64,000 nt of DNA from Patescibacteria group bacterium (GTDB lineage Bacteria > Patescibacteriota > Patescibacteriia > Buchananbacterales > UBA6539): contig JAQTYZ010000003.1 in assembly GCA_028688055.1 (NCBI GenBank), positions 1,191 through 65,190 on the forward strand, in the 5' to 3' direction. A program made the position numbers and the translations under genes. Shown here piece after piece: positions 14,339-53,200 of the stretch. Each line of letters opens with the position of its first letter. Within the stretch, counting starts at the first letter, position 1. The notes under the pieces were generated by a model. It had not been told where the DNA came from. It made no database searches and saw nothing but the letters and a program-made list of their open reading frames with translations.

Positions 14339-14385
14339 AAAAAAGCGTGTTATTTAATCTTGCCGACAGCTTGTTGGGCGACCCT

Positions 14386-14595
14386 TCAAAGGAGGATATT
14401 GGCAAAGGCGGTCGCTAAAAAAACTATTGCCACAATAATGGTGCCATTAAAAATCCATTTTTCAACCCCGCGCTTGGTTCGGTAAACGCTATTGTCACCA
14501 CCGAAAGCGGAGCCCAGGCCGGTTCCCTTATTTTGTAGAAGTATTAAAGCAATGAGAATTATCGCTGAAACTATTTGAATGATGTCGATATACAT
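14386..14595 (-). CDS. secG: preprotein translocase subunit SecG
   Basis: 69 aa with two TM helices and the SecG signature ILLQNKGTGLGSAFGG. Confidence 0.85.
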   Translation of the reverse strand: MYIDIIQIVSAIILIALILLQNKGTGLGSAFGGDNSVYRTKRGVEKWIFNGTIIVAIVFLATAFANILL

Positions 14596-14640
14596 AGGTT
14601 AATCAAATCGTAGCAGAAAAACGTTAATATGTCAATTGGC

Positions 14641-14787
14641 TTATTTGCCCTTAGCCAAACGAGCAGTAATAATTTTTTTTAATTTAATAACCTGCTGGCC
14701 GGAGACTTTCATCTTTGGGCCGGTTTTTTTTAGCCGCCGAAGAGTTCTTTTCTCTAACGCTTCGATTTGGCGGTCGGCATTTGACAT
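14641..14787 (-). CDS. small basic protein (48 aa), possible nucleic-acid-binding or ribosome-associated
   Basis: Found by manual translation and missing from the >=60-aa track. Sequence MSNADRQIEALEKRTLRRLKKTGPKMKVSGQQVIKLKKIITARLAKGK, K/R-rich, directly upstream of secG on the same strand. Confidence 0.3.
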   Translation of the reverse strand: MSNADRQIEALEKRTLRRLKKTGPKMKVSGQQVIKLKKIITARLAKGK

Positions 14788-14838
14788 AATCACAATTTTT
14801 AATTGTTTCTACTTTTATGATATAATATTAAGTAAAGT

Positions 14839-15594
14839 ATGTATAGTGACGACGAAATATTTATTAAGCCCGAGCCGCCTAAAATTAAGTCGACTCATCA
14901 GCGCTGGTACCAGAAATGGTGGGGCGTCGTGATTTTGCTGTTGCTATTTGTTGTCTCAATTACCGTGGCGGCCGGCGGCATATATGTTTTTAAATTAGTG
15001 TCATTATTGCGCAGTGGTCAGCTGACGCCGCAGGAGCTTTTTGTGGCTAGTCCAAGTGATTCGCAACTAAGCTTAGCTACAAGCTTAGTCACCAGCGATG
15101 ACCCCTCCCATGGTCCCAAGGATTCCAAGGTGGTCGTCGTGGAGTTTTTAGATTTCCAGTGCTCTTATTGTTTGGAGGCCGAGCCGGTTATCAGACAAAT
15201 TCTGAAAGATTATGGGGATAAGATTCTTTTTCAATATCGGGATTTTCCCATTACTGATATTCATCCGCAAGCCTTAATGGCTGCTGAAGCGGCTGAATGC
15301 GCTCATGAACAGGGAAAATTTTGGGAAATGCGCGATAAAATTTTTGAGGATCAGGCCAATATCAATGAGGCGGTACTAAAAACTTATGCGGTTCAAATCG
15401 GCTTAAATAGTGTTCAGTTTGGTAATTGTTTAGCGACTGAGAAATACCGCAGTGAAATCGAGCAGGACCTAACCGACGGTTACGCCGCTGGGGTCAAGGC
15501 GACCCCGACGTTTTTTATCAACGGCGCGCGATTGGATGGGGCAGTTCCGCTCAACACCTTTGAAAAAATAATAACCGCGGCGCTAAGTCGCTAA
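14839..15594 (+). CDS. DsbA-family thiol:disulfide oxidoreductase (thioredoxin fold), membrane-anchored
   Basis: N-terminal TM. CxxC active site (FQCSYCLEAEP) in a DsbA-like domain. Confidence 0.8.
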   Translation: MYSDDEIFIKPEPPKIKSTHQRWYQKWWGVVILLLLFVVSITVAAGGIYVFKLVSLLRSGQLTPQELFVASPSDSQLSLATSLVTSDDPSHGPKDSKVVVVEFLDFQCSYCLEAEPVIRQILKDYGDKILFQYRDFPITDIHPQALMAAEAAECAHEQGKFWEMRDKIFEDQANINEAVLKTYAVQIGLNSVQFGNCLATEKYRSEIEQDLTDGYAAGVKATPTFFINGARLDGAVPLNTFEKIITAALSR

Positions 15595-15596
15595 GT

Positions 15597-16412
15597 ATGA
15601 AAAAAGATTTATTTACTCTCAAAGTAGTTTCACTATTTTTTGTTTTATGTCAGCTTGTATTTTTTATTTTGCCGTTGCCGGTTGCGGCTCAAGATACGCC
15701 GGTGGTTAAAGTTCATTTGGGAAGTTTTACCGGTAGCGAGTTTACTACTCAGCCGTGTAACGAGGGCAAGTGTCCGGTTGATTGGATTGGGCAGTATATT
15801 TCGGCTTTATACCAGTATGGTATTATTGCGGCCGCGATTTTGGCAACGGTGATGATAATGATCGGCGGTTTTTTGTGGCTGACCTCAGGCGGTAGCCCCA
15901 ATCGAATTAGCCGCGGTAAAGAGTTTATTATGAGCTCCATCAGCGGTTTGTTGTTAGCTTTATTTTCTTTTATTATGTTGTTTTCAATCAATCCAGCGTT
16001 GATTAACCTAAAGTCGGTTGATATTAGTCAGCCCGGTGCGCTGGCAACACCGGAGCAAACATCTGGAAGTGGGGTTGATCCAAGTTCAGCAGCTGGTAAG
16101 TTTTTAAGCGAGCTTGATGCTAATAGTAATGATTTTACTCCATACTCGTTTAATTACCGAGTTTTAAATTATAAACCCAATGGTGATGGATTTTATCTTG
16201 AGCTTAGTGGTAGTGAAGGTTTAGCGCGGTTCCTTTTTGCTGAAGGTACTGGCGTAGAATTAACTGATCAGGATCGAGCTGGCGGCGCTGTAGCCAGGGT
16301 TGTATATAATGATGCTTTGTGGACGTTGCGTGGCAGTGAGGTTGGAAATCGGTATTGGGAGGTATTAAGATTGCCAAGTGATATTGGTGGCGTTAGGTTT
16401 GGCGAATTGTAA
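15597..16412 (+). CDS. secreted protein with a two-helix hydrophobic hairpin module (paralog A, pilin-like topology)
   Basis: Signal peptide, CxxGxC-PxDWIGxY, then ILATVMIMIGGFLWLTSGGSPNRISRGKEFIMSSISGLLLALFSFIMLF (two helices separated by a basic loop). The core is shared with the next gene. Confidence 0.55.
   Translation: MKKDLFTLKVVSLFFVLCQLVFFILPLPVAAQDTPVVKVHLGSFTGSEFTTQPCNEGKCPVDWIGQYISALYQYGIIAAAILATVMIMIGGFLWLTSGGSPNRISRGKEFIMSSISGLLLALFSFIMLFSINPALINLKSVDISQPGALATPEQTSGSGVDPSSAAGKFLSELDANSNDFTPYSFNYRVLNYKPNGDGFYLELSGSEGLARFLFAEGTGVELTDQDRAGGAVARVVYNDALWTLRGSEVGNRYWEVLRLPSDIGGVRFGEL
15831..15967 (+). repeat. about 137-nt near-identical segment shared with 16965-17100 (paralog core, copy A)
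   Basis: The first roughly 62 nt differ at only 2 positions from copy B. The remainder is more diverged. Confidence 0.8.
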
Positions 16413-16469
16413 CAATTTTTATTCTGGCAGTTATTTTAACTGTTTATTAAGGTTTAAATGTAATAGAAA

Positions 16470-17696
16470 ATGAAGTGGAATAAAGTTTTAATTTTATTAA
16501 TGTTGGCGGTTGTTCTATCCACCCCAGCAATTAGCCTAGCCGCCAATGAGTATCAAGTAACTGACCCTGGTGGTAGCGTGCTGAATGTTAGGTTTAATAA
16601 TGATACCGGTCATTGGGAGGTGCAGCATCAGCCTTACTATGGGACTAATTCTAATTGGACTGACGTAAACTCCAGCTGGGAATTGAGCCGTTTTACCCGA
16701 GACGAATGGCCAATACTTAAAGCTCTCAAGGGGCGCAATTTTGATTGGGGAAACCGATATTTTAGCGCTTTATTCTCAAATGACACAGGTTATAGTGTGC
16801 CTAAGTCCGTAGATAAGTCCGCCGCCACTGCCCCGCAGCTAAAAGTTGAAATTGGCGGCAGTATTGTTAGTTTGTCGGCGGTCAATTGTACTTCGGGCCA
16901 AGATTGTTCAATTCCTTGGATCGGTGAATATATGAAGCAAGTTTATATCTATTTAGTCGCCGTTGCCGCGATTTTGGCAACGGTGATGATAATGATCGGT
17001 GGTTTTTTGTGGTTGACCTCAGGCGGCAGTCCGGACCGAATTAGTCGCGGTAAAGAGTTTATCGTCAGCTCAATCAGCGGTATGCTGTTAGCATTATTTT
17101 CCTACATTATTTTGTATTCCATCAATCCTAACCTAATAAATCTTAAACCAATTGTTATTAAAGTGTCCGGTGATTTAGCAGTGCAGGCCCAAAATCGATC
17201 TAATGCGCAAGCGGCGACACAGTCAGGCCCTACGGCGCTCGGGGCTGGTTGTCCCGATGCCACTGAATCGGCTCAAGGCTATACGGCCGTGCTTACTTCT
17301 TATGCTCGTCCAACCCCTCAAAATTTTACCTCGGATGACGCTTTTCTTTGTGCGGTTGGTTTAAATTGTTCTTGTCCTAGCGGTACTGGACGTGACAATG
17401 GTCGTTCGTGTTCTTTCGGTAGTTTGACGTGGCATCCGTGTGTATCCTTTGATGCTAATACAACGCCATATTGTAATCAGACCGCCAGTGGTCAAGCGCC
17501 AAGAGTGGGTACGGTGGCGGCCGATCCCTGTTTCCCGTTTGGCACGCAGCTTTGTATTAATGGCGAGACTTACACCGTAACTGATCGCGGCAGTGCTATT
17601 ACTGGCCGTCATTTTGATTTATGGTCTGATGATTATTCGGCTGCTACTCGTGCTTATAGCAATAGCGCTCAGGTTACTGGCGGCCCTTGTCCTTAA
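16470..17696 (+). CDS. secreted protein carrying a hairpin module (paralog B) plus a C-terminal RlpA/3D-like (double-psi beta-barrel) putative cell-wall lytic domain
   Basis: Same CxxGxxC-PWIGEY and AILATVMIMIGGFLWLTSGGSPDRISRGKEFIVSSISGMLLALFSYII core. C-terminal Cys-rich region with GETYTVTDRGSAITGRHFDLWSDDYSAA, which resembles the RlpA/MltA 3D-domain motif (..NDRGP...IDLS.AA). Confidence 0.6.
   Translation: MKWNKVLILLMLAVVLSTPAISLAANEYQVTDPGGSVLNVRFNNDTGHWEVQHQPYYGTNSNWTDVNSSWELSRFTRDEWPILKALKGRNFDWGNRYFSALFSNDTGYSVPKSVDKSAATAPQLKVEIGGSIVSLSAVNCTSGQDCSIPWIGEYMKQVYIYLVAVAAILATVMIMIGGFLWLTSGGSPDRISRGKEFIVSSISGMLLALFSYIILYSINPNLINLKPIVIKVSGDLAVQAQNRSNAQAATQSGPTALGAGCPDATESAQGYTAVLTSYARPTPQNFTSDDAFLCAVGLNCSCPSGTGRDNGRSCSFGSLTWHPCVSFDANTTPYCNQTASGQAPRVGTVAADPCFPFGTQLCINGETYTVTDRGSAITGRHFDLWSDDYSAATRAYSNSAQVTGGPCP
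16965..17100 (+). repeat. copy B of the roughly 137-nt paralog core repeat
   Basis: See copy A at 15831-15967. Confidence 0.8.
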
Positions 17697-17735
17697 ATAA
17701 TTTTAATATTTTTTTATAAAATTCAGGTGAGAGAT

Positions 17736-17764
17736 TTGACATATGAGGCAATCCGGCGTAAAAT
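17736..17764 (+). promoter_or_regulatory. consensus sigma70 promoter for uvrA (TTGACA, 17-nt spacer, TAAAAT)
   Basis: TTGACA at 17736-17741, a 17-nt spacer, TAAAAT at 17759-17764. About 30 nt upstream of the uvrA ATG. Confidence 0.55.
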
Positions 17765-17794
17765 GTACTTCTAGTTTAGCTACGTCCTCAACAT

Positions 17795-20626
17795 ATGTTC
17801 AAAAAAATCATTGTCCGGGGTGCGCGAGTTCACAATTTAAAAAATGTTAGTGTTGAAATTCCCAGAGAAAAATTAGTTGTTTTGACTGGTATTTCTGGTT
17901 CCGGTAAATCATCTTTAGCTTTTGATACAATTTATGCCGAAGGGCAACGGCGCTACGTTGAGTCACTTTCAACTTACGCCCGACAATTTTTGGGTTTGAT
18001 GGATAAGCCGGAAGTTGATTCAATCGAAGGTTTGTCACCAGCCATCTCAATTGATCAGCGTTCAGCCTCGTCAAACCCTCGCTCAACGGTCGGCACGGTA
18101 ACGGAGATTTATGATTATCTCCGTTTATTATTTTCCCGCATTGGCCACGTTCATTGTCCAATTTGCAACCGCGAACTGACCCAGAAAAATTCCAGTCAAA
18201 TAATTGCCGACGTTTTTTCTCGAATCAAAGGCAAGGGTGAAGTTCTGATTTTAGCCCCAATCAATAATGATAAAAGTGAAGGCAAAAGTGTTTCGGAAAT
18301 AAAAAAATCAGGTTTTAAACAAATTAGAATCAACGGTCGTTTGCGGGACTTGAATGCCGAACTTATCACCGACCCCGAATTAAATTCGGCCCAAAAGGCC
18401 GAAATTGTTGTTGGCAAATTTACTTTTACGCCAGATAATAAAGAACAGCTAAAAGATGAATTTGGGCGCATTATTGAGTTAGCACTTGATTTAGGAAATG
18501 GGCGGATTGTCATTTTAACCGACGGCCATGAAAGTTTTTTTTCGCAACATTATATTTGTGCGGACTGCGATTATACCTTGACTGAATTAGAGCCCCGAAA
18601 CTTTTCTTTTAACAGTCCGGCTGGCGCTTGCGCCAAATGTTTGGGTTTGGGTACCAGGCTGGAAGTTGACGCCGATCTAGTAATTCCCAATAAGCGTTTA
18701 ACTTTAGCAGAGGGGGCGATTAAGCCGTGGGCAAGAAATTTTTCAAATCAAAATAGTTATTGGAAATTACTTCAGCTGGTTGCCAAGGAAAATACGTTTG
18801 ACGTAAATGTTCCAGTGGCCGAGCTGTCTCCCAAAGCCCTGGAATTAATTTTGCGCGGCACGGGTGGTAAAGAATATTTGGTGGAGTCCGAATCATTGAA
18901 GTTCGCCGGAGTTTTGGCAACGTTAGAAGAAAAATATCAGCAGACAACTTCCGATTATTTGCGACAAGAGATTGAACAATATATGCGAGTTTCAATCTGC
19001 CCTTATTGTCAGGGCAAAAGATTGAAGCCAGCTTTTTTGGCCATTACCGTCGGTGACTTTAATATTTCTGAGATTACCGCCAAAACCATTGAACATAGCC
19101 TGCCTTTTTTTAAAGATTTATTGAGTGACAAAAAAGGCCAAGGTAGCTTGACGACGCGCGACCATAAAATCGCCGATCAAGCGCTTAAGGAAATTATTAA
19201 TCATTTGAAATTTTTAGATGACGTCGGTTTAAGCTATCTGACTTTAGACCGGCCGGCGGCAACCTTGTCGGGTGGTGAAGCGCAACGAATTAGGTTGGCG
19301 ACCCAATTGGGGCTTTCGCTAACTGGCGTTATTTATATTTTAGACGAGCCATCAATTGGCCTTCATCAAAAAGACAACCAGCGCTTGATTGATACGCTAA
19401 AAAATTTACGGGATTTAGGCAATACGGTTTTAGTTGTTGAGCATGATGAAATGACGATGGAAGCCGCTGACGAAATTATTGATATTGGTCCTGGCGCTGG
19501 TGAAAATGGCGGTAAAATTGTCGCCCAAGGCACACCGGCGGAAATTAAAAAAAATAAAAATTCGTTGACCGGTCGTTATTTATCCGGCGCGTCAAAAATT
19601 GCGGAGCCCAAGAATCATCACCAGGGGAACGGAAAATTTATTGAAATTATTGGCGCCACTGAATTTAATTTGAAAAATATTGACGTTAAAATTCCGTTAG
19701 GCAAATTCATTTGTTTGACTGGCGTGTCCGGTTCCGGTAAGTCGACGTTGATGCTGGAAATTTTAGTCAAGGCTTTGGCGCGAAGATTTTATCGCGCCAA
19801 GGATTTACCAGGCCAACATAAAGAAATTAAGGGCATTGAAAATATTGATAAGGTGATCGCGATTGATCAATCGCCAATTGGCCGAACGCCTAGGTCAAAC
19901 CCCGCAACTTACACCGGCGTTTTTACCTATATCCGAGATTTATTTACGGAAACACAGGAAGCGAAATTGCGCGGCTATAAGGCCGGCCGATTTAGCTTTA
20001 ACGCTAAAGCCGGACGCTGTGAATCTTGCGCCGGCGAAGGCTTGGTTAAAATTGAAATGCAATTTTTGCCAGACGTTTATGTCCAATGTGAGGAATGCCA
20101 CGGCCATCGTTATAAAGCGGAGTCGCTGGAAGTTCATTATCAGGGCCGTAATATCGCTGATATTTTAGATATGTCCGTTGAACAAGCGATGAAATTTTTT
20201 CGCCAGCAGCCCATTATTTATAATAAATTAAAAACTTTATTTGAAGTCGGTTTAGGCTATGTGAAGTTGGGACAGCCGGCCACGACTTTGTCGGGCGGTG
20301 AAGCACAACGAGTTAAGTTGGCCACGGAGTTGTCACGGCGGTCGACTGGAAAGACTTTATATATTTTGGATGAGCCGACCACTGGTTTGCATTTTGAAGA
20401 CATTAAACAATTGCTGGAAGTTTTAAACAAGTTGGTTGATAAAGGCAATACGGTTTTGATTATTGAACATAATTTAGATGTTATTAAGTGTGCCGACTGG
20501 GTGATTGATTTAGGTCCGGAAGGTGGCGAAAAGGGCGGTGAAATTGTCGCGCAAGGTACGCCGCGTGATATTGCTAAGGTCAAAAAATCATATACCGCCC
20601 ACTATTTGAAAGATGTTTTAAAATAG
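17795..20626 (+). CDS. uvrA: excinuclease ABC subunit A
   Basis: 943 aa. Two ABC modules ([38 protein letters not shown]), zinc-finger CxxC pairs and LSGGEAQR signatures. Confidence 0.95.
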
Positions 20627-26202: not shown

Positions 26203-27030
26203 ATGGCCTCCCCGGTCAAACAACCTGATAATCTTAATGTTTTAGAAGAGATTTATCATGAGGTCGACTCAAAAAATGCGCCAAAAAAATCCGTTCATGA
26301 CAGCATTATTGGCTATCTTAAAGAGAATCCGAAACGAGTCGATGGTTTTTTGTCACTGGTGGTTATTTTTTTTGGCTTAGTGGCGATTATTTGGGGTTGG
26401 AGTCGATTCCAATATGGTCTGATCAGTTATCGATTGCCAAAGCCGGGGGATGCGGTAAAACTTTTGACCGCAAGCCAGCCGCCACCCCAAGATTTATTGG
26501 GTTTGAAAGGAAAAGATACGGATAATGATGGGCTGTCAGACTATGATGAAATTTATATTTATGGTACTAGTCCCTACCTGCCCGATAGCGACTCCGATGG
26601 CATTCCGGATAAGACGGAAATTGCTAATCACACTGATCCAACCTGCGCGTTAAATAATAACTGTTTTTCCCTGACAGCCCTAAACGCTGTTAATCCGGCT
26701 GACCGTAGTGACGCAACTAGTTTAACTTTTGACGCCAAAACCGAGACGATCAAGCTGCGCCAAGCCTTGTTAAATTCAGGTATGAGTCAATCAGACTTGG
26801 ACCAATTGAATGACGCTGATTTATTGGCGGCTTACAATGAAGTTATTGCCGGACAGGCTGGTTCGACGACGGCAACAATCCCTAGTAATGTTGAAGATTT
26901 AACACCAGATCAAATTAGAGCCGTGTTAAAAACGGCCGGCGTTAGCGATAGTGTTTTAAAAAATATTTCGGACAGCGATTTAATGAGTTTAGTTAAACAG
27001 CTGCCAACGTCAACACCGCCCACTAACTAG
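26203..27030 (+). CDS. single-pass membrane protein with thrombospondin-type-3-like Ca-binding Asp motifs
   Basis: TM (LSLVVIFFGLVAIIWGW), then DTDNDGLSDYDEIYIYGTSPYLPDSDSDGIPDKTE (DxDxDG repeats). It lies directly upstream of the giant gene, with a 5-nt gap. Confidence 0.6.
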   Translation: MASPVKQPDNLNVLEEIYHEVDSKNAPKKSVHDSIIGYLKENPKRVDGFLSLVVIFFGLVAIIWGWSRFQYGLISYRLPKPGDAVKLLTASQPPPQDLLGLKGKDTDNDGLSDYDEIYIYGTSPYLPDSDSDGIPDKTEIANHTDPTCALNNNCFSLTALNAVNPADRSDATSLTFDAKTETIKLRQALLNSGMSQSDLDQLNDADLLAAYNEVIAGQAGSTTATIPSNVEDLTPDQIRAVLKTAGVSDSVLKNISDSDLMSLVKQLPTSTPPTN

Positions 27031-36704: not shown

Positions 36705-39700
36705 ATGCTAAACATCAAAAATAAAAAAATTACAGTCGGAATTATTCTAGTGTTAGTGATGTTTGGTTTTTTGAGTTTTGGAATAAAGGCGGTGAGGGCG
36801 ACCGATCCGCCGCCTGGTATGACGGAAGTTCCGGGTCCAATCATTCGTCCCGCCACTCCGGTCGTTGCGCCAGTTGTGCCAATTACCGGCTCTAAGAATA
36901 AATCTTCAGACAGTCAAAGCAGCGGTTTTATGGTTTGGCTGGTGAGCTGGACTGTGCTGCCAATTATTAGGCTTGAAGGTGTAATTATTTCATTGGAAGC
37001 CTACGTGTTAAACACGTTTATGGGCTATAACGGCTTTGTTGATTCTCAGGCGGTGGTTTTGGGTTGGACGCAAGTTCGCGACGTTGCCAACTTATTTTTT
37101 GTGCTGATCTTGTTGGCTATTTCGTTGGGGACAATTTTAAGAATCGAATCGTACAATTTTAAAAAAATGCTGCCCAAGGTTTTGATTATGGCCGTGCTGG
37201 TCAATTTTAGCCGAACCATTTCCGGGTTGATCATTGATTTTTCGCAAGTGATAATGATGACTTTTGCCGCCTCTTTTGCCGGTCGTGATGGTGACGGTCA
37301 TTTAGTGGCAATATTAAACATCCGCAGTATTTTACTTAGTGGCAGCCAAGTTGGCACAAATCAAGTTGCTTTATCGCCGACTGATTTAATTGCTAGCGGA
37401 ATTCTCGCAGTCGTGATGCTTTTAATCGCTATGATTGTTTTGTTGGTAATGTTGGTGGTAATTATAATGCGAATTGTGATGCTGTGGCTGTTGGTAGTTT
37501 TGTCACCTTTGCCATTTATTCTGTCCGCTTTTCCGCAGGGTCAGAAGTATGCCCAGCAGTGGTGGCAGGAATTTACCAAATATATCATTGTCGGTCCGGC
37601 GCTCGCCTTTTTCATTTGGTTAGCTTTTGCCGTGGCTGGGTCATCGGCTGGTAATCAGTCTGGCAAAATTTCCGTTGACGCGATGGGTGATACGACGATT
37701 ACAGCCGCTTCGTTGGGTGGTGAACTTAAGCCAAATAGCCAATTAGCTGGTGTAACAATTAGCCAGCCAGCTGATAAACCGGGTGCGGCGGCGGGGCCAG
37801 CGACTGGCTTAGACACTAAAGTAATTAATGAAGTGGCGCAGCCGGACCAATTTATTTCTTTTATCATCGCCATTGGAATGTTAATGGGCGGTTTAATGTT
37901 GACCCAGCAACTCGGCGTGGCCGGCGGATCATTTGCCGGCAGTATGGCTAATAAGATTAGACAGGGGCGACCACTTATTGCACCTCTAAAGTTATTTGGT
38001 AAAGGTTTGGGTAAAGCGGAAAAAATGTTATATGGTGGAACTGGTATTGGACTTGATCCGCGTCGCGTTTTCCGTGGACTAAGTGAACATATGACGGCTT
38101 GGAATGATCGAATGGAGCGGCAAGGTGCGACCAAAGGCTTTGGTAAGGCTAAAGAAATGGTGGCCGGCCAAAGAGTGGGCCCGAATGGTGAGATTATTAA
38201 TTTGGAAAAAGGTAGAAGTTATCCCAGAAATTTGGCGCGTCGATTTTTCGGTCTGGGTGGAATGATGATGTCGTCACCGGCTGATTTTATGGATAATTAT
38301 GGTACCTTCCGTGGTGCCTGGAAGGGAGCAAAAACTTTATTTAAAGGAACTAGTATTACTGAATTAGAAGACTGGGAGCATGAAAAGCGTGAAAAAAATG
38401 ATAAATTAAGCAGACAGGAAAAATTAGTACACGTGGGCAATGTTTCTGAAAAGGGGCGTGAGCAGTTAATCACCGAAGCAATAGACAAAAATGCTGAAAG
38501 TTATGAAGCCGGATCTCATTTTTTTGCAACGGAAGAGGTTGGAGGCAAGACAACTGTCATCTCAATGTCGCCTGCCGAATTGGATGCTGAAATGGGTAAA
38601 GTTAAAAAAGCTGATTTAAAGAAGTACGGTTTGGATCCTGAAATATTGTCAGACCCCAAAGCAGGCGGGATTGACGTAAATGATCCTGAGTCGGTTGATA
38701 AATTTAAAAAAGCTTTCTTTGGTTATCATGCCGGTAAAATGATTAATGATACCGGTACCTATGTTGATTCAGCCAATACAATTCAAAAGCTTACTGATAC
38801 CGAATTAGAACTTGCGGGTGAAAGATATTATGATGATCAGGTTAAAATAAAGGATGATGAAATCTCTCGCGTTGCTACTGGTGGGCCGACTGATCAACAG
38901 GTTCAAGTTAGACAAAATGAATTGGAGTCCATTAATCAACAGATGTTGAAAGTTTTAAAAAGTATTGAGTCTAGCAATCGCACCGCCACAAAAGAAGAAA
39001 AGTTTGTACTGAGTGAACTGGCCGATAAGGGTGAACGACTTGGCGGCAAGGCGGTCACTGATGCTGTCACGGGTTTACAACATTTTGGTTTGTCATCAAC
39101 TGATCGAGATAATATTCAGCAAATTACCCCCGCTGATTTTGTCGGACGTGCTGCCTTAACGCCAGAAGAATTTAAGCAGTTAGGCGAAAAAGACGATTTG
39201 GGTCGATCAAAACTTGAGCAACTAAAGGAGAATAGGCATGATCTATCGGATGAAATCACTTTGGCAAAAATGAAGCCTGAGGACAGAAGGATCCAGCAAA
39301 ATAAAATTAATGATGGTATAAAAGTGGCTCGAGAAAAGTTGCAGAAGGATGACATGGAAAAGAAGAAGCGAGCTATTGATGTGCCAATTGGTTATGAAGC
39401 GTTGTCTCATGCGCGAGCGGCTGAACGTGAAGAATTGTCAAAGCTGCCCGACAGTATGGAGTGGACGGAAATTGAAAGCGAATTATTTTCAGCAATGCAA
39501 ATGAAGAATACCGCCAGAGTGAGGGCGTTGATGAAAAAAGCGGCGGTTGACTACAATGACAATGAGATTTGGCGTTCATTTGGCTATTCGCAGGATAATA
39601 AAGGGATGAAGGAATTTGGCGATAAAGAATTAGTTGGCGGTCTGGGAATGAACCGGCAAGAAATGTTAAAGTTTATGGACGATGTGGCTTATATCAATGA

Positions 39701-40136
39701 AGATAAGGGTCACTATGATACCGCTCGAATGGTTACCTTGGAAAATGGTATGGCGCGCTGGTCAACGGAGGCGGAACACGCTGCCGCGGTCGCTAATGAG
39801 AATTTGAAGAAAGCCAGTCGTAACTTTTTGCAGAATACTAACCGCTTAGGGTTTGGTGGTGACGATGCGGCTGGTAATTATAAATTGGCAATGTCTGGAA
39901 AATTAACCTTAGCTGGTTTAGGGGATAAAGAACTACAGTTTAGACTTGACCGAGGTGAGTTTAATCCAAGCACGTTGTCAAAAATTGGTTCGGATATTGA
40001 AGGCTTAGAAGATATGGTTAGGCGTGGTTGGCTGACAAGAAAGACGATTGATACCATTAAACAATTTGCGCAAAGAAAAACGGTTGACGCGGCTTACAGT
40101 GAACTTTATAAGCAGGCTAAAAGCGCAACAAAATAA
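36705..40136 (+). CDS. VirB6/TrbL-like polytopic membrane protein with a roughly 700-aa hydrophilic coiled-coil C-terminal extension
   Basis: Signal peptide plus at least 6 hydrophobic helices in the first 330 aa (VirB6-like topology). The remainder is charged and helical. It sits in a block with the VirB3/VirB4 homologs. Confidence 0.5.
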   Translation: MLNIKNKKITVGIILVLVMFGFLSFGIKAVRATDPPPGMTEVPGPIIRPATPVVAPVVPITGSKNKSSDSQSSGFMVWLVSWTVLPIIRLEGVIISLEAYVLNTFMGYNGFVDSQAVVLGWTQVRDVANLFFVLILLAISLGTILRIESYNFKKMLPKVLIMAVLVNFSRTISGLIIDFSQVIMMTFAASFAGRDGDGHLVAILNIRSILLSGSQVGTNQVALSPTDLIASGILAVVMLLIAMIVLLVMLVVIIMRIVMLWLLVVLSPLPFILSAFPQGQKYAQQWWQEFTKYIIVGPALAFFIWLAFAVAGSSAGNQSGKISVDAMGDTTITAASLGGELKPNSQLAGVTISQPADKPGAAAGPATGLDTKVINEVAQPDQFISFIIAIGMLMGGLMLTQQLGVAGGSFAGSMANKIRQGRPLIAPLKLFGKGLGKAEKMLYGGTGIGLDPRRVFRGLSEHMTAWNDRMERQGATKGFGKAKEMVAGQRVGPNGEIINLEKGRSYPRNLARRFFGLGGMMMSSPADFMDNYGTFRGAWKGAKTLFKGTSITELEDWEHEKREKNDKLSRQEKLVHVGNVSEKGREQLITEAIDKNAESYEAGSHFFATEEVGGKTTVISMSPAELDAEMGKVKKADLKKYGLDPEILSDPKAGGIDVNDPESVDKFKKAFFGYHAGKMINDTGTYVDSANTIQKLTDTELELAGERYYDDQVKIKDDEISRVATGGPTDQQVQVRQNELESINQQMLKVLKSIESSNRTATKEEKFVLSELADKGERLGGKAVTDAVTGLQHFGLSSTDRDNIQQITPADFVGRAALTPEEFKQLGEKDDLGRSKLEQLKENRHDLSDEITLAKMKPEDRRIQQNKINDGIKVAREKLQKDDMEKKKRAIDVPIGYEALSHARAAEREELSKLPDSMEWTEIESELFSAMQMKNTARVRALMKKAAVDYNDNEIWRSFGYSQDNKGMKEFGDKELVGGLGMNRQEMLKFMDDVAYINEDKGHYDTARMVTLENGMARWSTEAEHAAAVANENLKKASRNFLQNTNRLGFGGDDAAGNYKLAMSGKLTLAGLGDKELQFRLDRGEFNPSTLSKIGSDIEGLEDMVRRGWLTRKTIDTIKQFAQRKTVDAAYSELYKQAKSATK

Positions 40137-44124: not shown

Positions 44125-44583
44125 ATGCAGCAATTTGTGGTGCCACAATTCATTGATGTCGAAGATAAAATTTTGGGACCAATTACCGTTCGCCAATTTA
44201 TTATTATTTTAGTCGGCGGTGGGATTGACTTTGTCGCTTATAAGCTGTCTGATTTTACCTTATTTTTATTGCAGTTCGTTATTGTGTCGTTGATAAGTTT
44301 TATTGTTGCTTTTATCAAAATAAACGGACGACCCATTCACTATTTTTTGCTTAATGTTTTTCAAACCGTTAAAAGACCGAAACGCCGGGTCTGGCAAAAA
44401 ATATTTTCGACCGCACTTTTGAAAAGCTATTTGAATATTAAGGAAATCAGATTGCCACCAACCATCACCACCAAGAATAAAGTGAGGGCATCGCGTTTAG
44501 CCGAGATGTCTTTGATTGTTGATACCGGTGGGGTTTATCAGGGTGAAAAAGAACCGCCAAATTCGACTAATGAATTAGTATAA
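44125..44583 (+). CDS. VirB3-like small membrane protein (two TM helices)
   Basis: 152 aa. A hydrophobic hairpin (FIIILVGGGIDFVAY...FLLQFVIVSLISFIVAFI). Its position immediately upstream of VirB4 is typical of VirB3/PrgI/TcpD. Confidence 0.45.
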   Translation: MQQFVVPQFIDVEDKILGPITVRQFIIILVGGGIDFVAYKLSDFTLFLLQFVIVSLISFIVAFIKINGRPIHYFLLNVFQTVKRPKRRVWQKIFSTALLKSYLNIKEIRLPPTITTKNKVRASRLAEMSLIVDTGGVYQGEKEPPNSTNELV

Positions 44584-44605: not shown

Positions 44606-45286
44606 ATGAAGTCAAATAAACTAGCAAACAAAAAGATTAAGGCATCAACGCAACACTTTTTGGATGTGGCCGAGATTAAAGAAGACTGTGTGCTATTAAA
44701 AGATGGGACGTTGCGCGCTGTTTTACTGGTTTCAAGTATTAATTTTTCGTTAAAATCTGAAGATGAGCAAAATGCTATTATTGCGGCTTATATTGGATTT
44801 TTAAATTTTTTGGAATTTCCGCTCCAAATTGTCATTCAGTCGCGTCAGCTCGACATCGATGGTTATCTTGATCGGTTGAAAAAGATTGAAAAAGAGCAAA
44901 CCAATGAATTATTACGAATTCAGACCGCTGAGTATCGCCAGTATGTCAGTGAGTTAGTTGACTTGGGTGAAATTATGAATAAGCGATTTTATGTTGTCAT
45001 TCCTTACGATCCATTATCTGACAAACAAAAATCATGGTTTAAGCGTTTACTTGGCTTGTTTACCGCCGCCAAGGAAGTTAAATTGAATCAAGACGCTTTC
45101 AGCAAAAGACGACACGAATTATTTCAACGAGTCGACCATATCTTATCCGGACTTGCTAGTATGAGTCTAAAATCAGTGGTTTTGGATACCCAGAGTTTGA
45201 TTGAACTTTATTATAATACTTATAATCCCGATGTTTACAGTAAGGAAAAATTGGTGGAGATTAATAAGCTTAGGATTGAAGAATAA
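44606..45286 (+). CDS. VirB4/TrbE N-terminal domain protein (split VirB4, part 1)
   Basis: HFLDVAEIKEDCVLLKDGTLRAVLLVSSINFSLKSEDEQNAII fits the CagE/TrbE/VirB N-terminal pattern (..tkdGsl.a...l.g.d..s.see..). It ends 2 nt before the ATPase ORF, in another frame. Confidence 0.55.
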   Translation: MKSNKLANKKIKASTQHFLDVAEIKEDCVLLKDGTLRAVLLVSSINFSLKSEDEQNAIIAAYIGFLNFLEFPLQIVIQSRQLDIDGYLDRLKKIEKEQTNELLRIQTAEYRQYVSELVDLGEIMNKRFYVVIPYDPLSDKQKSWFKRLLGLFTAAKEVKLNQDAFSKRRHELFQRVDHILSGLASMSLKSVVLDTQSLIELYYNTYNPDVYSKEKLVEINKLRIEE

Positions 45287-45288
45287 TT

Positions 45289-47217
45289 ATGGCTATAAGA
45301 CCAAGCGACATTTTGCGTGAAGAAAAAATGGCGGCCATGGAGCCGTCGGATAATTCCACCCCCGAAGAAAAAAGAGCGAAAGAAAAGCAGGAACTTGAGA
45401 GTCAGAAGATAGTTTTGGAAGAAGAAAAGATTTATCGTGAGGGGGTAGTATCCATTAAGGATTTAATTGCTCCGGCGGCAATGGAAGTGACGCCGACGTT
45501 TATTAAGTTGGGTAATAAATTTGTTCGAACTTTGTTTGCGATTGGTTATCCGCGCTACATTGCTGTTGGCTGGTTCGCGCCGATTATTAATATGAGTGTG
45601 ACTTTGGATATTGCGATGTTTTTTTATCCGGTTAAGTCCGATATTATTTTGAAACAGCTTCGAAATAAAGTTGGTGCTTTGGAAGCGCAGATTTTGGCCG
45701 ACCGAGAAAAAGGTGCCCCGCGTGATCCAATTAGAGAAACCGCTCTGCGCGATATTGAAAAATTGCGGGACGATTTAACACAAGGGGTTGAACATTTTTT
45801 TCAATTTGGTTTGTATGTTACCATTTACGCTGATTCTAAAGAAAAATTAGACAGTATGACTGGCGACATTGAGTCGTTATTCGGTTCTCGTTTAGTTTTT
45901 TCAAAAAAAGTTTTGTATCAGGCCGAACAAGGTTTTAACTCTACTCTGCCGTTAGGTAACGATGAATTGATGATTGGTTTTAATATGAATTCATCGCCGG
46001 TGGCTTCGTCATTTCCATTTATTTCCTCGGAGCTTACATCCGATGAAGGAATTCTATATGGTATTAATCGGCACAATAATAGTTTGATTTTATTTGATCG
46101 ATTTTCGTTGCAGAATGCCAATACGGTTGTTTTTGCCACCTCCGGGGCTGGAAAAAGTTATGCTATTAAACTTGAAGTTTTACGAACGATGATGTTTGGG
46201 ACGGATGTTATTGTTATTGACCCTGAGCGGGAATATAAACATTTAAGCGACGCCGTCGGCGGAACTTATGTCAATATTTCTTTAAGTTCAGACAGTAAAA
46301 TTAATCCATTTGATTTGCCCCGAGCCGTTGGGGAGCAGCGAACGTCAGACGTTATTCGCGGTTCAGTTATTACCATTAAAGGTTTAATCAGATTAATGCT
46401 TGGCAAATTAACTCATCAAGAAGATTCAATTATTGATCGCGCCCTTTTGGAAACTTACGCTAAAAAAGATATCACCTCAGAATCAGATTTATCAAAAGTT
46501 GAAGCGCCGATTATGCAGGATTTTCAGGATGTTTTGGAAGGAATGGAAGGTGGTGCTGATTTAGCCCTTAGATTAAAAAAATATACTCAGGGTACTTTTT
46601 CGGGACTATTTAATAGCCCAACAAATGTGGATATGAAAAACCAGCTGGTTATTTTTTCTGTTCGAGATTTAGAAGATGAATTAAGAGCGATGGCGATTTA
46701 TACCATTGTTAATTACATTTGGAATGTGGTGAGATCGGAATTAAAAAGACGGATCTTAATTATCGACGAGGCCTGGTGGTTAATGCAAAACGAAGATTCG
46801 GCCAAGTTTATTTACGCCTTAGTCAAACGCTGCCGAAAATATTATTTAGGGGTTACCAATATTACTCAAGATGTTAACGACTTTTTGTTGTCACCTTATG
46901 GGCAGGCCATTGTTAATAATTCGGCGATGCAATTATTAATGAGGCAGTCACCGGCTTCGATCGAATTAGTCCAAAAAACATTTCTTTTGACGGAAGGAGA
47001 AAAATATTTGTTATTGGAATGTGGTGTTGGTGAAGGAATATTTTTTGCCGGTGATAAACACGCGGCGATCAAAGTTGTTGCTTCTTATACTGAGGATCAG
47101 CTCATTACTTCCGACCCGAGACAGATTTTGGAAATTGAAGAGGCAAAAAAAGAATTTGAGAAATCGCAGGGAGACAGTGGCCTTGGCGAAGAGGCGCTAA
47201 ACAACCCGAATAATTAA
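45289..47217 (+). CDS. virB4: VirB4/TraC/TrbE-family type IV secretion ATPase (part 2, with Walker A and B)
   Basis: TPTFIKLGNKFVRTLFAIGYPRYIAVGW (VirB4 central block), Walker A VVFATSGAGKSYAIK, Walker B RILIIDEAWWLM. 642 aa. Confidence 0.85.
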   Translation: MAIRPSDILREEKMAAMEPSDNSTPEEKRAKEKQELESQKIVLEEEKIYREGVVSIKDLIAPAAMEVTPTFIKLGNKFVRTLFAIGYPRYIAVGWFAPIINMSVTLDIAMFFYPVKSDIILKQLRNKVGALEAQILADREKGAPRDPIRETALRDIEKLRDDLTQGVEHFFQFGLYVTIYADSKEKLDSMTGDIESLFGSRLVFSKKVLYQAEQGFNSTLPLGNDELMIGFNMNSSPVASSFPFISSELTSDEGILYGINRHNNSLILFDRFSLQNANTVVFATSGAGKSYAIKLEVLRTMMFGTDVIVIDPEREYKHLSDAVGGTYVNISLSSDSKINPFDLPRAVGEQRTSDVIRGSVITIKGLIRLMLGKLTHQEDSIIDRALLETYAKKDITSESDLSKVEAPIMQDFQDVLEGMEGGADLALRLKKYTQGTFSGLFNSPTNVDMKNQLVIFSVRDLEDELRAMAIYTIVNYIWNVVRSELKRRILIIDEAWWLMQNEDSAKFIYALVKRCRKYYLGVTNITQDVNDFLLSPYGQAIVNNSAMQLLMRQSPASIELVQKTFLLTEGEKYLLLECGVGEGIFFAGDKHAAIKVVASYTEDQLITSDPRQILEIEEAKKEFEKSQGDSGLGEEALNNPNN

Positions 47218-53199: not shown

Positions 53200-53200
53200 G

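What the first reader, a model, noticed from the sequence alone, without database searches (positions are those of the whole stretch)
14839..17696. DsbA plus two secreted paralogs sharing a near-identical two-helix hairpin module (VirB2/TrbC-like topology), one fused to an RlpA/3D-like lytic domain
The two adjacent genes share a CxxGxxC-PWIGxY segment followed by hydrophobic helix, basic loop (TSGGSPxRISRGKEF), hydrophobic helix. The first roughly 62 nt of the core differ at 2 positions, implying recent duplication or ongoing gene conversion. Helix-loop-helix with a signal peptide is the topology of T4SS pilins (VirB2/TrbC). Paralog B adds a C-terminal domain with the DRG...HFDL signature of RlpA/MltA 3D (double-psi beta-barrel) cell-wall lytic domains, a VirB1-like function. 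These may be the pilin and the peptidoglycan-lytic components of the T4SS-like system encoded 10 kb downstream. The DsbA gene is immediately upstream.
Basis: partly seen in the sequence, partly recalled or inferred. Interest (0 to 1): 0.6.

Follow-up and report, generated by a model that had tools for sequence, protein, structure and literature searches.

The report
Pilin hairpins fused to wall-cutting enzymes
In an ultra-small (Patescibacteria) bacterium, a disulfide-forming enzyme gene is followed by two secreted proteins built on the same type IV secretion pilin hairpin, one carrying a cell-wall-cutting domain, and this pilus-subunit/wall-hydrolase fusion recurs next to the secretion motor in related genomes.

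Summary
Window 14839-17696 encodes a membrane-anchored DsbA-like oxidoreductase and two Sec-exported paralogs, A (271 aa) and B (408 aa). They share a two-helix hairpin: 59% identity over 126 aa, with a 62-nt core differing at 2 positions.

- **Hairpin identity.** It belongs to the Patescibacterial VirB2-like family Pfam PF18895. B is just above the Pfam cut-off and A just below. A profile of 82 short CPR pilins hits both at about 1e-33.
- **B's C-terminus.** It is a Cys-rich MltA/YuiC-type 3D (double-psi beta-barrel) domain. D383 aligns with MltA's D308.
- **Paralog history.** The pair is old. Its hairpins are homogenised by gene conversion, seen in 5 of 8 syntenic loci and reaching 216 identical nt in one.
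- **Family pattern.** Relatives fuse the hairpin to many unrelated wall hydrolases (3D, GH24, SLT, glucosaminidase, VanY/M15, M23).
- **Link to the T4SS.** In related ABY1-class genomes such fusions lie 1-8 kb downstream of VirB4. Seven of those loci have DsbA directly upstream of the fusion gene.

My reading is a DsbA-serviced VirB2-VirB1 fusion cassette of the Patescibacterial T4SS. Pilins and pilin arrays are published. I found no description of the fusion, the DsbA link or the gene conversion. Function is inferred, not shown.

The parts
14839..15594 (+). DsbA-like thiol-disulfide oxidoreductase. It has one N-terminal TM anchor (aa 30-48) and a CSYC active-site motif (aa 108-111). Its stop codon is 2 nt before the start of paralog A.
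   Evidence: PF13462 at 1.6e-28 and PF01323 at 1.9e-18. Hydropathy and Cys positions. A DsbA gene sits immediately upstream of pilin-module genes in every syntenic locus whose upstream flank was read (L001-L003, L005-L008; the L009 upstream ORF had no Pfam look-up), and in 7 VirB4-proximal loci.
15597..16412 (+). Paralog A (271 aa). Layout: signal peptide (aa 1-31, VAA|Q), short linker with C54/C59, pilin hairpin module (aa 49-143), and a C-terminal domain of unknown fold (aa 144-271).
   Evidence: PF18895 at 25.1 bits, E 1.9e-5. Short-pilin HMM E 8e-35. AF2 helices 62-96 and 101-131 at pLDDT 80-90. NCBI names the identical protein 'pilin'. The C-terminal domain has relatives only in P0014 and L009 754-1614.
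15741..16025 (+). Pilin hairpin module of A. It consists of a Cys pair, TM1, the basic loop TSGGSPNRISRGKEF, TM2 and an INP cap.
   Evidence: HMM envelope aa 49-143. Hydropathy peaks at aa 75-93 and 118-136.
16470..17696 (+). Paralog B (408 aa). Layout: signal peptide (aa 1-24/25, SLA|A), lineage-specific N-terminal domain (aa 26-135), pilin hairpin module (aa 136-230), low-complexity linker (aa 231-258) and a Cys-rich 3D lytic-transglycosylase-like domain (aa 259-408).
   Evidence: PF18895 at 27.2 bits and PF06725 at 25.3 bits, both above their cut-offs. AF2 model. 12 Cys, all outside the membrane segments. The N-terminal domain is absent from the 78%-identical ortholog P0002.
16875..17159 (+). 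Pilin hairpin module of B.
   Evidence: HMM envelope aa 136-230. AF2 helices 150-183 and 188-218. Hydropathy peaks at aa 158-176 and 197-215.
17244..17693 (+). MltA/YuiC-type 3D (double-psi beta-barrel) domain. It has 10 conserved Cys and conserved Asp residues D352, D372 and D383.
   Evidence: Foldseek hits MltA 2pic/2gae/2ae0 at E 4e-4, probability 1.0, and YuiC 4wlk at 39% identity, rmsd 2.0 A. The family profile hits YuiC at E 6.6e-6, and the MltA segment DVGGAIKGQHFD aligns with DRGSAITGRHFD. Invariant columns are listed. Phage 3D-domain proteins also match.
15831..15892 (+). Gene-conversion core in A. It is 62 nt long and differs at 2 positions from 16965-17026. It lies inside the 229-nt repeat 15831-16059.
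   Evidence: 35-nt exact run.
16965..17026 (+). Gene-conversion core in B, the partner of 15831-15892. It lies inside the repeat 16965-17193.
36705..40136 (+). Extended VirB6/TrbL-like T4SS membrane protein (1143 aa).
   Evidence: PF04610 TrbL at 26.6 bits against a cut-off of 25.9.
44125..44583 (+). PrgI/VirB3-like T4SS protein.
   Evidence: PF12666 PrgI at 4.9e-9.
44606..45286 (+). TrsD-like protein resembling the VirB4 N-terminal region.
   Evidence: NF041427 TrsD at 4.7e-6. NF045975 (VirB4 family) residues 92-233 at 1.2e-10.
45289..47217 (+). VirB4-like T4SS ATPase of the monoderm CD1110 type.
   Evidence: NF045971 at 358.8 bits against a cut-off of 325. P-loop_TraG at 5.5e-29.

Best explanation
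**What is shown.** The three genes form one tightly spaced, co-directional unit in a chromosomal, housekeeping-rich region of an ABY1-class (Buchananbacteria-like) Patescibacterium.

- Paralogs A and B each have an N-terminal signal peptide followed by a VirB2/TrbC-superfamily pilin hairpin: TM1, a short basic cytoplasmic loop, then TM2.
- This topology puts both flanking regions outside the cell.
- B's outside C-terminal region is an MltA/YuiC-type 3D lytic-transglycosylase domain. The aspartate aligning with MltA D308 (the residue mutated in PDB entry 2pic, MltA-D308A) is kept, and there are 10 conserved cysteines.
- The upstream membrane-anchored DsbA-like protein has an intact CxxC motif.

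**What is inferred.**

- DsbA forms the disulfides of these Cys-rich exported domains.
- The pilin hairpin brings the proteins into the type IV secretion pilus or channel assembly, whose VirB6-, VirB3- and VirB4-like genes lie 19-28 kb downstream. No other pilin gene is present in the window.
- The tethered wall hydrolase therefore cuts peptidoglycan exactly where the T4SS structure must cross a wall, either the cell's own or the host bacterium's. In effect this is a covalent VirB2-VirB1 fusion.
- Sister genomes carry a second hairpin protein with a putative zinc-peptidase (LAS/M15-like) domain. That would give a glycan-cutter plus peptide-cutter pair, like the separate lysozyme-like and M15B-like proteins annotated in the T4SS cluster of Southlakia epibionticum.
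- Repeated gene conversion keeps the hairpins of co-resident paralogs nearly identical. This is what one expects if they must co-assemble in one structure.
- A's C-terminal domain has no assignable function. My best guess is a wall- or host-binding module.
For: **Domain identities.**
- The profile of 82 short CPR pilins hits A at 8e-35 and B at 1.3e-32, and no third pilin-like ORF exists in the 64 kb.
- The module profile retrieves short PF18895 pilins and PF04956 TrbC/VirB2 proteins.
- The 3D domain is supported by Foldseek hits to MltA and YuiC and by the catalytic-Asp alignment.

**Topology.** A signal peptide plus two hydrophobic peaks are present, all Cys lie in the predicted outside parts, and AF2 models a helical hairpin.

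**Selection for a 'hairpin plus wall hydrolase' combination.**
- Among 49 long relatives, 13 carry 3D, 3 GH24 Phage_lysozyme, 2 VanY, 1 SLT and 1 glucosaminidase.
- Among 81 further representatives there are 3 GH24, 2 glucosaminidase, 2 SLT_3, 1 SLT, 1 3D and 1 Rpf-type transglycosylase.
- At the same syntenic slot between DsbA and UvrA, L007 carries GH24 where the other loci carry 3D.

**Link to the T4SS.**
- Within 10 kb of VirB4 in 80 ABY1-class genomes, 16 loci carry 22 pilin-module ORFs.
- All 22 are long (299-572 aa) and all hit PF18895. Some carry SLT, VanY, 3D, M15 or M23 domains.
- 26 loci have a DsbA homolog, and in 7 loci DsbA sits directly upstream of the pilin-module gene.
- The C-termini of these ORFs hold 2-24 Cys.

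**Gene conversion.**
- Within-genome hairpins are more alike than orthologs.
- Core dS between A and B is 0.64, against more than 1.8 in the flanks and between genomes. Core dN is 0.06.
- Permutation P is 1e-4 for the window pair and below 5e-5 for L005.
- Exact shared runs within genomes are 35, 39, 216, 31 and 74 nt. The longest between-genome run is 26 nt.

**Literature.**
- PF18895 pilins and pilin arrays in Patescibacteria are described, and most genomes with VirB2 lack a detected VirB1 (PMC12102498).
- The T4SS cluster SEML1_0006-0019 and its pilin subunits are essential in S. epibionticum (PMC10633639). PMC12102498 cites that study for the essentiality of the peptidase and lysozyme homologues next to virB4.
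- The supplementary annotation lists SEML1_0006 as lysozyme-like and SEML1_0007 as M15B-peptidase-like.
Against: - No experiment or structure shows that these long proteins enter a pilus. A domain of 130-180 aa on every subunit may be sterically hard to fit into a VirB2-type filament.
- In this genome the cassette sits in a housekeeping synteny block (SecG, UvrA, LeuRS, FemAB), about 15 genes from VirB4, not inside the T4SS cluster.
- The Pfam pilin scores are marginal, and A is below the cut-off.
- Neither fold searches nor PDB sequence-profile searches recovered any solved VirB2/TraA pilin.
- Only 16 of 80 VirB4 neighbourhoods show pilin-module genes within 10 kb. Many of those loci are truncated contigs.
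- Enzymatic activity and the role of DsbA are inferred from motifs only.
- A's C-terminal domain and B's N-terminal domain have no assignable function.
Confidence: 0.6

Rival explanations
1. The proteins are housekeeping autolysins. The hairpin is only a pilin-derived membrane anchor for enzymes that remodel the cell's own wall during growth and division, and it has no role in type IV secretion.
For: - The cassette lies in a conserved housekeeping block (RNase J, SBP, SecG | DsbA, A, B | UvrA, LeuRS, FemAB, Sua5, KsgA) in all 8 syntenic loci.
- FemAB, a cell-wall peptide-bridge enzyme, is nearby.
- YuiC, the closest solved relative, is a stationary-phase wall-remodelling enzyme and not a secretion component.
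- The cassette is 19-28 kb from the T4SS genes.
Against: - The anchor is not generic. It is a member of the T4SS_pilin family.
- In 16 other ABY1 genomes long pilin-module genes lie 1-8 kb downstream of VirB4, and some carry SLT, VanY, 3D or M23 domains.
- A and B are the only pilin-like genes in a window that holds VirB3-, VirB4- and VirB6-like genes.
- Gene conversion that keeps the hairpins matched is not expected for mere anchors.
Confidence: 0.18
2. The proteins are pilus-displayed polymorphic weapons. The conserved hairpin is a delivery and assembly module, and the variable C-terminal domains are exchangeable effectors that attack the host or prey cell wall. Recombination at the conserved hairpin swaps the cargo, as in polymorphic toxin systems.
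For: - The C-terminal regions of 49 relatives fall into 23 unrelated clusters, while the hairpin stays 45-60% identical.
- Non-homologous hydrolases, 3D and GH24, occupy the same syntenic slot.
- Conversion tracts end at the hairpin borders.
- The Patescibacterial T4SS and its pilins are essential for epibiotic growth on a host (PMC10633639).
Against: - No immunity-like gene accompanies the cassette.
- The gene set is stable (orthologous) between close relatives rather than rapidly shuffled.
- Nothing here distinguishes own wall from host wall as the target.
- This reading overlaps the best explanation and differs mainly in the target and in the meaning of the polymorphism.
Confidence: 0.17
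3. The cassette is a phage-derived lysis unit, with a holin-like membrane hairpin joined to an endolysin.
For: - A two-TM hairpin next to a muralytic domain resembles holin/endolysin logic.
- Phage 3D-domain proteins match B's C-terminal domain at E 1e-7 to 1e-4.
- GH24 'phage lysozyme' domains occur in relatives.
Against: - No phage genes occur nearby. The locus is chromosomal and syntenic across 8 genomes.
- Both proteins have Sec signal peptides and an N-out/C-out topology with disulfide-rich outside domains.
- The hairpin matches pilin profiles and no holin family.
Confidence: 0.02
4. The near-identical core reflects a recent tandem duplication rather than gene conversion.
For: The genes are adjacent and share a 229-nt repeat at 78% identity, with a 62-nt core at 97%.
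Against: - Both genes, each with its own distinct C-terminal domain, have orthologs in sister genomes. So the duplication predates those splits.
- Outside the core, synonymous sites are saturated (dS above 2), while core dS is 0.64.
- Independent homogenised tracts exist in L001, L005 (216 nt identical), L006 and L007.
Confidence: 0.03

Closest known systems
VirB2-like pilins of Patescibacteria (Pfam PF18895 T4SS_pilin; pilin arrays in Southlakia epibionticum SEML1_0014-0019 and Nanosynbacter lyticus TM7x; Quinonero-Coronel et al. 2025, PMC12102498; Wang et al. 2023, PMC10633639)
   Same: - The hairpin family is the same: signal peptide, two hydrophobic helices and a short basic loop.
- The genes are arranged as tandem paralogs.
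- They lie in a genome with a monoderm-type VirB3/VirB4/VirB6 system and no recognised relaxase in the window.
   Different: - The described pilins are short (about 85-175 aa) and sit inside the T4SS cluster.
- Here the hairpin is embedded in proteins of 271 and 408 aa that carry extracellular domains, one of them a wall hydrolase.
- The genes are about 15 genes from VirB4 and follow a DsbA gene.
- Reported arrays are divergent (mean 25% identity, maximum 54%). Here the hairpins are homogenised: 59% identity over 126 aa, and near-identical cores.
VirB1-type T4SS peptidoglycan hydrolases (A. tumefaciens VirB1; the two-domain monoderm enzymes PrgK of pCF10 and TraG of pIP501; SEML1_0006 lysozyme-like and SEML1_0007 M15B-like proteins in S. 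epibionticum)
   Same: The proposed job is the same: local opening of peptidoglycan for a T4SS. The sister loci also pair a glycan-cutting activity with a putative peptide-cutting activity.
   Different: - VirB1, PrgK and TraG use SLT/GH23 (plus CHAP) folds and are separate proteins.
- B uses the unrelated MltA/YuiC 3D double-psi beta-barrel fold and is covalently joined to a pilin hairpin.
- B is therefore an analogue of VirB1, not a family member.
MltA (E. coli) and YuiC (B. subtilis) 3D-domain lytic transglycosylases
   Same: - The fold matches: Foldseek probability 1.0, and rmsd 2.0 A over 62 residues to YuiC.
- The D-x-G-x-A-I-x-G-x-x-F-D motif is conserved, including the Asp that aligns with MltA D308.
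   Different: - MltA is an outer-membrane lipoprotein with an extra inserted domain. YuiC is a small secreted or anchored protein.
- B's domain carries 10 conserved Cys and hangs from a pilin hairpin.
VirB2 paralog families maintained by recombination in Bartonella and Anaplasma T4SS loci
   Same: Multiple tandem VirB2-like genes with recombination between the copies.
   Different: In those systems variation of surface-exposed parts is emphasised (antigenic or host-range variation). Here conversion homogenises the membrane/assembly core, while the flanking domains are non-homologous.

Membership tests
T4SS pilin, VirB2/TrbC superfamily (Pfam PF18895 / PF04956) | Sequence match to the family profile at or above the curated cut-off | tested here: met
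   B scores 27.2 bits against a cut-off of 26.6. A scores 25.1 bits, just below it. A profile of 82 short CPR pilins, mostly annotated PF18895, hits A at 8e-35 and B at 1.3e-32. The module profile also retrieves PF04956-annotated proteins, for example P0120 at E 5e-9.
T4SS pilin, VirB2/TrbC superfamily (Pfam PF18895 / PF04956) | Cleavable signal peptide followed by two hydrophobic helices separated by a short, positively charged loop | tested here: met
   Hydropathy peaks: A at aa 13-31, 75-93 and 118-136; B at aa 6-24, 158-176 and 197-215. The loop is SPxRISRGKE. AF2 models the helical hairpins. Signal-peptide cleavage is inferred from the VAA|Q and SLA|A motifs, not run through a predictor.
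T4SS pilin, VirB2/TrbC superfamily (Pfam PF18895 / PF04956) | Small protein (mature form about 70-130 aa) consisting essentially of the hairpin | tested here: not met
   A is 271 aa and B is 408 aa. A has a 128-aa extracellular C-terminal region. B has about 110 aa of mature sequence before the hairpin and 178 aa after it.
T4SS pilin, VirB2/TrbC superfamily (Pfam PF18895 / PF04956) | Encoded within or next to the T4SS gene cluster | tested here: inconclusive
   In the window the genes are 19 kb from the VirB6-like gene and 27.6 kb (about 15 genes) from VirB4. In 16 of 80 related VirB4 loci, long pilin-module genes lie 1-8 kb downstream of VirB4.
T4SS pilin, VirB2/TrbC superfamily (Pfam PF18895 / PF04956) | Structural similarity to solved VirB2/TraA pilins, and polymerisation into a pilus | tested here: inconclusive
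3D-domain lytic transglycosylases (Pfam PF06725; MltA/YuiC; double-psi beta-barrel) | Profile match above the cut-off, and a DPBB fold | tested here: met
   PF06725 scores 25.3 bits against a cut-off of 23.8. Foldseek hits MltA at E 4e-4, probability 1.0, and YuiC at rmsd 2.0 A with 39% identity. NSF-N and p97-N DPBB domains appear further down the list.
3D-domain lytic transglycosylases (Pfam PF06725; MltA/YuiC; double-psi beta-barrel) | Three conserved aspartates, including the one equivalent to MltA D308 | tested here: met
   D372 and D383 are invariant and D352 is at least 90% conserved in 13 homologs. DRGSAITGRHFD aligns with MltA D297-VGGAIKGQHF-D308. D308 is the residue mutated in PDB entry 2pic, MltA-D308A; its catalytic role is from my own knowledge of the MltA literature.
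3D-domain lytic transglycosylases (Pfam PF06725; MltA/YuiC; double-psi beta-barrel) | Lytic transglycosylase activity (1,6-anhydro-MurNAc products) | not testable with these tools
   This needs a biochemical assay.
RlpA-type DPBB_1 (Pfam PF03330) | Profile match above the cut-off | tested here: not met
   DPBB_1 scores 17.4 bits against a cut-off of 28.8, E 0.0055. The fold superfamily is the same, but the family is not.
VirB1 family (SLT/GH23 lysozyme-like T4SS hydrolase) | SLT/lysozyme-like catalytic domain | tested here: not met
   B has no SLT hit and its domain has the DPBB fold. Some relatives of the hairpin family do carry SLT domains. B may work like VirB1 but is not a member.
DsbA-like thioredoxin-fold oxidoreductase | Thioredoxin/DSBA profile match and a CxxC active site, exported or membrane-anchored | tested here: met
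   PF13462 at 1.6e-28 and PF01323 at 1.9e-18. CSYC at aa 108-111 and a single TM at aa 30-48. Oxidase activity was not tested.
Holin | Small phage-encoded membrane protein without a signal peptide, next to an endolysin in a lysis cassette | tested here: not met
   No holin family hit. Signal peptides are present and the topology is N-out/C-out. The context is a chromosomal housekeeping block conserved in 8 genomes.

The most novel reading that the evidence does not exclude
In ABY1-class Patescibacteria the type IV secretion pilus or conduit may be built from, or studded with, pilin subunits that each carry an enzyme. It would be a filament that digests cell wall as it grows toward or into the host bacterium.

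On this reading the conserved hairpin is the assembly module. The C-terminal cargo (glycosidases, peptidases and unknown domains) is interchangeable, swapped by recombination at the hairpin and folded by a dedicated DsbA.

A related possibility is that the cargo is cleaved off after delivery to the assembly site. TrbC and VirB2 pilins are C-terminally processed (from my own knowledge of those systems), and the multi-hairpin 'poly-pilin' ORFs found could be a second sign of such processing.
Probability: 0.2. Interest if true: 0.85.

Novelty: new variant of a known kind. Interest (0 to 1): 0.6.

Why it matters
The T4SS and its VirB2-like pilins are essential for the epibiotic life of the one genetically tractable Patescibacterium. 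What the system does, and how a pilus crosses two cell walls, is unknown. The 2025 survey (PMC12102498) noted that most genomes with VirB2-like pilins lack a detectable VirB1.

The fusions seen here offer a concrete answer for one large class. The wall-opening enzymes are built into the pilin-family proteins themselves and are serviced by an adjacent DsbA.

This gives several directly testable handles:
- a catalytic Asp to mutate;
- a soluble domain to assay;
- a hairpin interface kept uniform by gene conversion.

It also suggests that many 'pilin' counts in metagenomic surveys hide multi-domain enzymes. If the enzymes are displayed on the filament, it would be a new way of combining a secretion pilus with effector activity.

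Tried and rejected
- **A's C-terminal domain as a degenerate form of the LAS/M15-like domain of sister-locus partners.** A MAFFT alignment suggested this, but hhalign gave probability 0.1, so I dropped the idea. Pfam, NCBIfam and PDB-profile searches of A's C-terminus and B's N-terminal domain were all empty. AF2 confidence for A's C-terminus is below 50.
- **LAS/M15 assignment of the partner domain (alignment A6).** It rests on invariant H-x6-D and HWH-x-E motifs. The only PDB support is weak hits to the Sonic hedgehog N-domain at E 0.11. I treat it as probable, not shown.
- **More pilin genes in the window.** A search including the T4SS cluster found none.
- **Recent duplication, holin/endolysin and RlpA readings.** All rejected; see the rival explanations and the membership test.
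- **Promoter and terminator scan of 14300-17900.** Site counts were within about one standard deviation of the shuffled expectation. The only notable site is a strong promoter-like match before uvrA.
- **Literature searches for pilin-hydrolase fusions.** Four searches plus one search found no description. The library is incomplete, so absence is not proof.

Full report
**Observation.**

Window 14839-17696 holds three co-directional ORFs.
- The first, 14839-15594, is a DsbA-like protein. It matches Thioredoxin_4 at 1.6e-28 and DSBA at 1.9e-18. It has one N-terminal TM segment and a CSYC motif.
- Two nucleotides after its stop codon starts paralog A (15597-16412, 271 aa).
- After a further 57 nt comes paralog B (16470-17696, 408 aa).

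A and B share 59% identity over 126 aa, E 2e-42. At the DNA level there is a 229-nt repeat at 78% identity. Its first 62 nt differ at two synonymous positions. A deviates slightly in the Cys/PW segment, reading CNEGKC-PVDWIGQY.

The rest of the window is chromosomal housekeeping DNA: RNase J, SecG, UvrA, LeuRS, FemAB, Sua5, KsgA, MetK, RecG, RadA and ClpB.

It also holds a monoderm-type T4SS gene set:
- a VirB6/TrbL-like gene at 36705-40136;
- a PrgI/VirB3-like gene at 44125-44583;
- a TrsD-like gene at 44606-45286;
- VirB4 of the CD1110 type at 45289-47217.

The T4SS genes are therefore 19-28 kb downstream, not 10 kb.

B is identical to a protein from a 'Patescibacteria group bacterium' MAG. 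The closest named relatives are Candidatus Buchananbacteria.

**What the shared module is.**

The best Pfam hit for both proteins is T4SS_pilin (PF18895). B is just above the gathering score and A just below it. NCBI already names A 'pilin'.

Two further searches link the module to the pilin family.
- A profile of the module retrieved 82 short proteins (80-175 aa). Most carry PF18895, and four carry PF04956 (TrbC/VirB2) alone or in addition.
- An HMM built from those short pilins hits A at 8e-35 and B at 1.3e-32. It hits nothing else in the 64 kb; the next best is E 0.28.

The architecture also fits. Both proteins have an N-terminal signal-peptide-like segment and two hydrophobic peaks separated by SPxRISRGKE. 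AF2 models a long helical hairpin, with pLDDT 80-90 in A.

This gives an N-out/C-out topology. It agrees with all mature cysteines lying outside the membrane segments.

The module is thus a member of the Patescibacterial VirB2-like pilin family by sequence. The proteins fail the 'small, hairpin-only' criterion of a classical pilin.

**What B's C-terminal domain is.**

- Pfam 3D (PF06725) is above its cut-off. DPBB_1 (the RlpA type) is not.
- The AF2 model has pLDDT of about 80 over residues 260-408.
- Foldseek finds E. coli MltA (E 4e-4, probability 1.0) and B. subtilis YuiC (39% identity, rmsd 2.0 A). Other double-psi beta-barrels follow. Phage 3D-domain proteins also match.
- A 13-sequence family profile hits YuiC at 6.6e-6.
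- The same profile aligns B's D372-RGSAITGRHF-D383 with MltA's D297-VGGAIKGQHF-D308. D308 is the residue mutated in PDB entry 2pic, MltA-D308A.
- D352, D372 and D383 and ten cysteines are conserved across the family.

**Paralog history.**

The block SecG <- | -> DsbA, then two or three hairpin genes, then UvrA-LeuRS-FemAB-Sua5-KsgA, is syntenic in eight further loci. The closest genome, L003, has orthologs of both A (74% identity) and B (78%).

The duplication is therefore old. Yet within genomes the hairpins are more alike than orthologs between genomes. The evidence:
- The L005 pair shares 216 identical nucleotides.
- Exact shared runs are 35 nt (window), 39 (L001), 31 (L006) and 74 (L007). 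The between-genome maximum is 26 and the median 12.
- In the window pair, synonymous divergence is 0.64 in the hairpin core and above 1.8 (saturated) in the flanks. Core dN is 0.06.
- A GENECONV-style permutation on variable sites gives P=1e-4 for the window pair (0.014 on third positions only) and below 5e-5 for L005.

This is recurrent gene conversion confined to the hairpin, not a recent duplication.

**The wider pattern.**

The hairpin family is very large. Of 1.84 billion representative proteins, 79,932 match at E<=1e-3.

The relatives closest to A and B are all 'long'. Their median C-terminal extension is 148 aa. The C-terminal regions of 49 relatives fall into 23 unrelated clusters.

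Among the recognisable C-terminal domains, wall hydrolases of unrelated folds dominate: 3D, GH24 phage lysozyme, SLT, SLT_3, glucosaminidase, Rpf-type transglycosylase and VanY/M15.

At the same syntenic slot, L007 carries GH24 where the other loci carry 3D.

Partner genes in L001, L006, L007 and L008 carry a domain with invariant H-x6-D and HWH-x-E motifs, a LAS/M15-like zinc-peptidase signature. PDB support for that assignment is only weak.

**Link to the T4SS.**

I fetched 80 VirB4 neighbourhoods, each +-10 kb, from ABY1-class genomes with 71-87% VirB4 identity.
- 16 contain pilin-module ORFs, 22 in all.
- All 22 are long (299-572 aa) and all hit PF18895. Some carry SLT, VanY, 3D, M15 or M23 domains.
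- They start 1-8 kb downstream of VirB4.
- 26 loci hold a DsbA homolog. In seven of them DsbA is immediately upstream of the pilin-module gene. That is the same cassette as in the window.
- The C-termini of these ORFs contain 2-24 cysteines, which gives the DsbA a rationale.

In Southlakia epibionticum the T4SS cluster SEML1_0006-0019 and its pilin subunits are essential (PMC10633639). PMC12102498 cites that study for the essentiality of the peptidase and lysozyme homologues next to virB4. The supplementary annotation lists a lysozyme-like protein (SEML1_0006), an M15B-like peptidase (SEML1_0007) and six short PF18895 pilins as separate genes.

The ABY1 cassettes look like the same parts list, with the enzymes fused to the pilin hairpins.

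**Mechanism, with status marked.**

Shown:
- the domain composition;
- the topology logic;
- the conserved aspartate equivalent to MltA D308;
- the gene conversion;
- the recurrent DsbA-hairpin-hydrolase linkage near VirB4 in relatives.

Inferred:
- DsbA oxidises the exported Cys-rich domains.
- The hairpin takes A and B into the T4SS pilus or channel assembly.
- The tethered transglycosylase opens peptidoglycan locally, in the cell's own wall and/or the host's.
- Conversion keeps co-assembling hairpins compatible.

Unknown:
- the function of A's C-terminal domain and of B's N-terminal domain (the latter is absent from the 78%-identical ortholog);
- whether the proteins polymerise;
- whether the cargo is cleaved off.

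**Comparison with what is known, and novelty.**

VirB2-like pilins, pilin arrays and the monoderm-type T4SS of Patescibacteria are published (PMC12102498; PMC10633639; review PMC12857230). The survey paper stresses that most genomes with VirB2 lack a detected VirB1. It reports divergent arrays with at most 54% identity.

I found no description of pilin-hydrolase fusions, of the DsbA linkage or of hairpin gene conversion in the searchable library. That library is incomplete.

I therefore rate this a new variant of a known kind.

**Verdict.** Interest is 0.6.

Noticed in passing
not in the window; proteins P0133-P0161 and others: Among the 150 best hits of the hairpin profile, 45 are single ORFs with 2-14 (HMMER counts up to 17) tandem pilin hairpins. 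Examples are P0135 (1775 aa) and P0136 (1147 aa, 11 modules). These 'poly-pilin' proteins are topologically possible as multi-hairpin membrane proteins. They could also be polyproteins that are processed, or fused gene calls.
   Followed up: partly
window 14641-14793 (-): A small, very basic 50-aa ORF (MIMSNADRQIEALEKRTLRRLKKTGPKMKV...) lies between secG and dsbA. A gene of 45-51 aa is called at the same position in L002, L005, L006, L007 and L008. It has no Pfam hit.
   Followed up: partly
L001 11416-12738; L006 8850-9971; L007 11090-11953; L008 10984-11910: The second hairpin gene in sister loci carries a C-terminal domain with invariant H-x6-D and HWH-x-E motifs. That is a LAS/M15-type zinc-peptidase signature not recognised by Pfam. 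The only PDB support is weak hits to the Sonic hedgehog N-domain at E 0.11. The window's paralog A occupies this slot but lacks these residues and shows no detectable homology.
   Followed up: partly
window 26203-27030 and 27036-36644 (+): A TSP3-repeat protein (275 aa) is followed by a 3202-aa giant protein with three CBM_4_9 carbohydrate-binding stretches. Both lie directly upstream of the VirB6-like gene. The same TSP3-plus-giant-ORF pair follows KsgA in L003, and a TSP3-repeat gene does in L006. The giant protein may be a surface adhesin or fibre belonging to the T4SS neighbourhood.
   Followed up: no
window 16545-16874 (B residues 26-135): B has an N-terminal extracellular domain of about 110 aa between the signal peptide and the hairpin. 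It is absent from the 78%-identical ortholog P0002 (317 aa). It has no Pfam hit and only a moderate-confidence beta/alpha AF2 model. It looks like a lineage-specific insertion.
   Followed up: partly
window 41788-42990, 47854-48513, 49787-51853, 51856-53265: metK sits inside the T4SS gene run. A ComF-like phosphoribosyltransferase, recG and radA follow VirB4. This matches the comF/recG/radA association reported for ABY1-class T4SS loci in PMC12102498.
   Followed up: no
window 40143-41480, 43017-44123, 47224-47823 (+): Three ORFs inside the T4SS run (445, 368 and 199 aa) have no Pfam or NCBIfam match. The 199-aa protein directly after VirB4 has an N-terminal TM segment. It occupies the position where other ABY1 genomes have the long pilin-module genes.
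   Followed up: no
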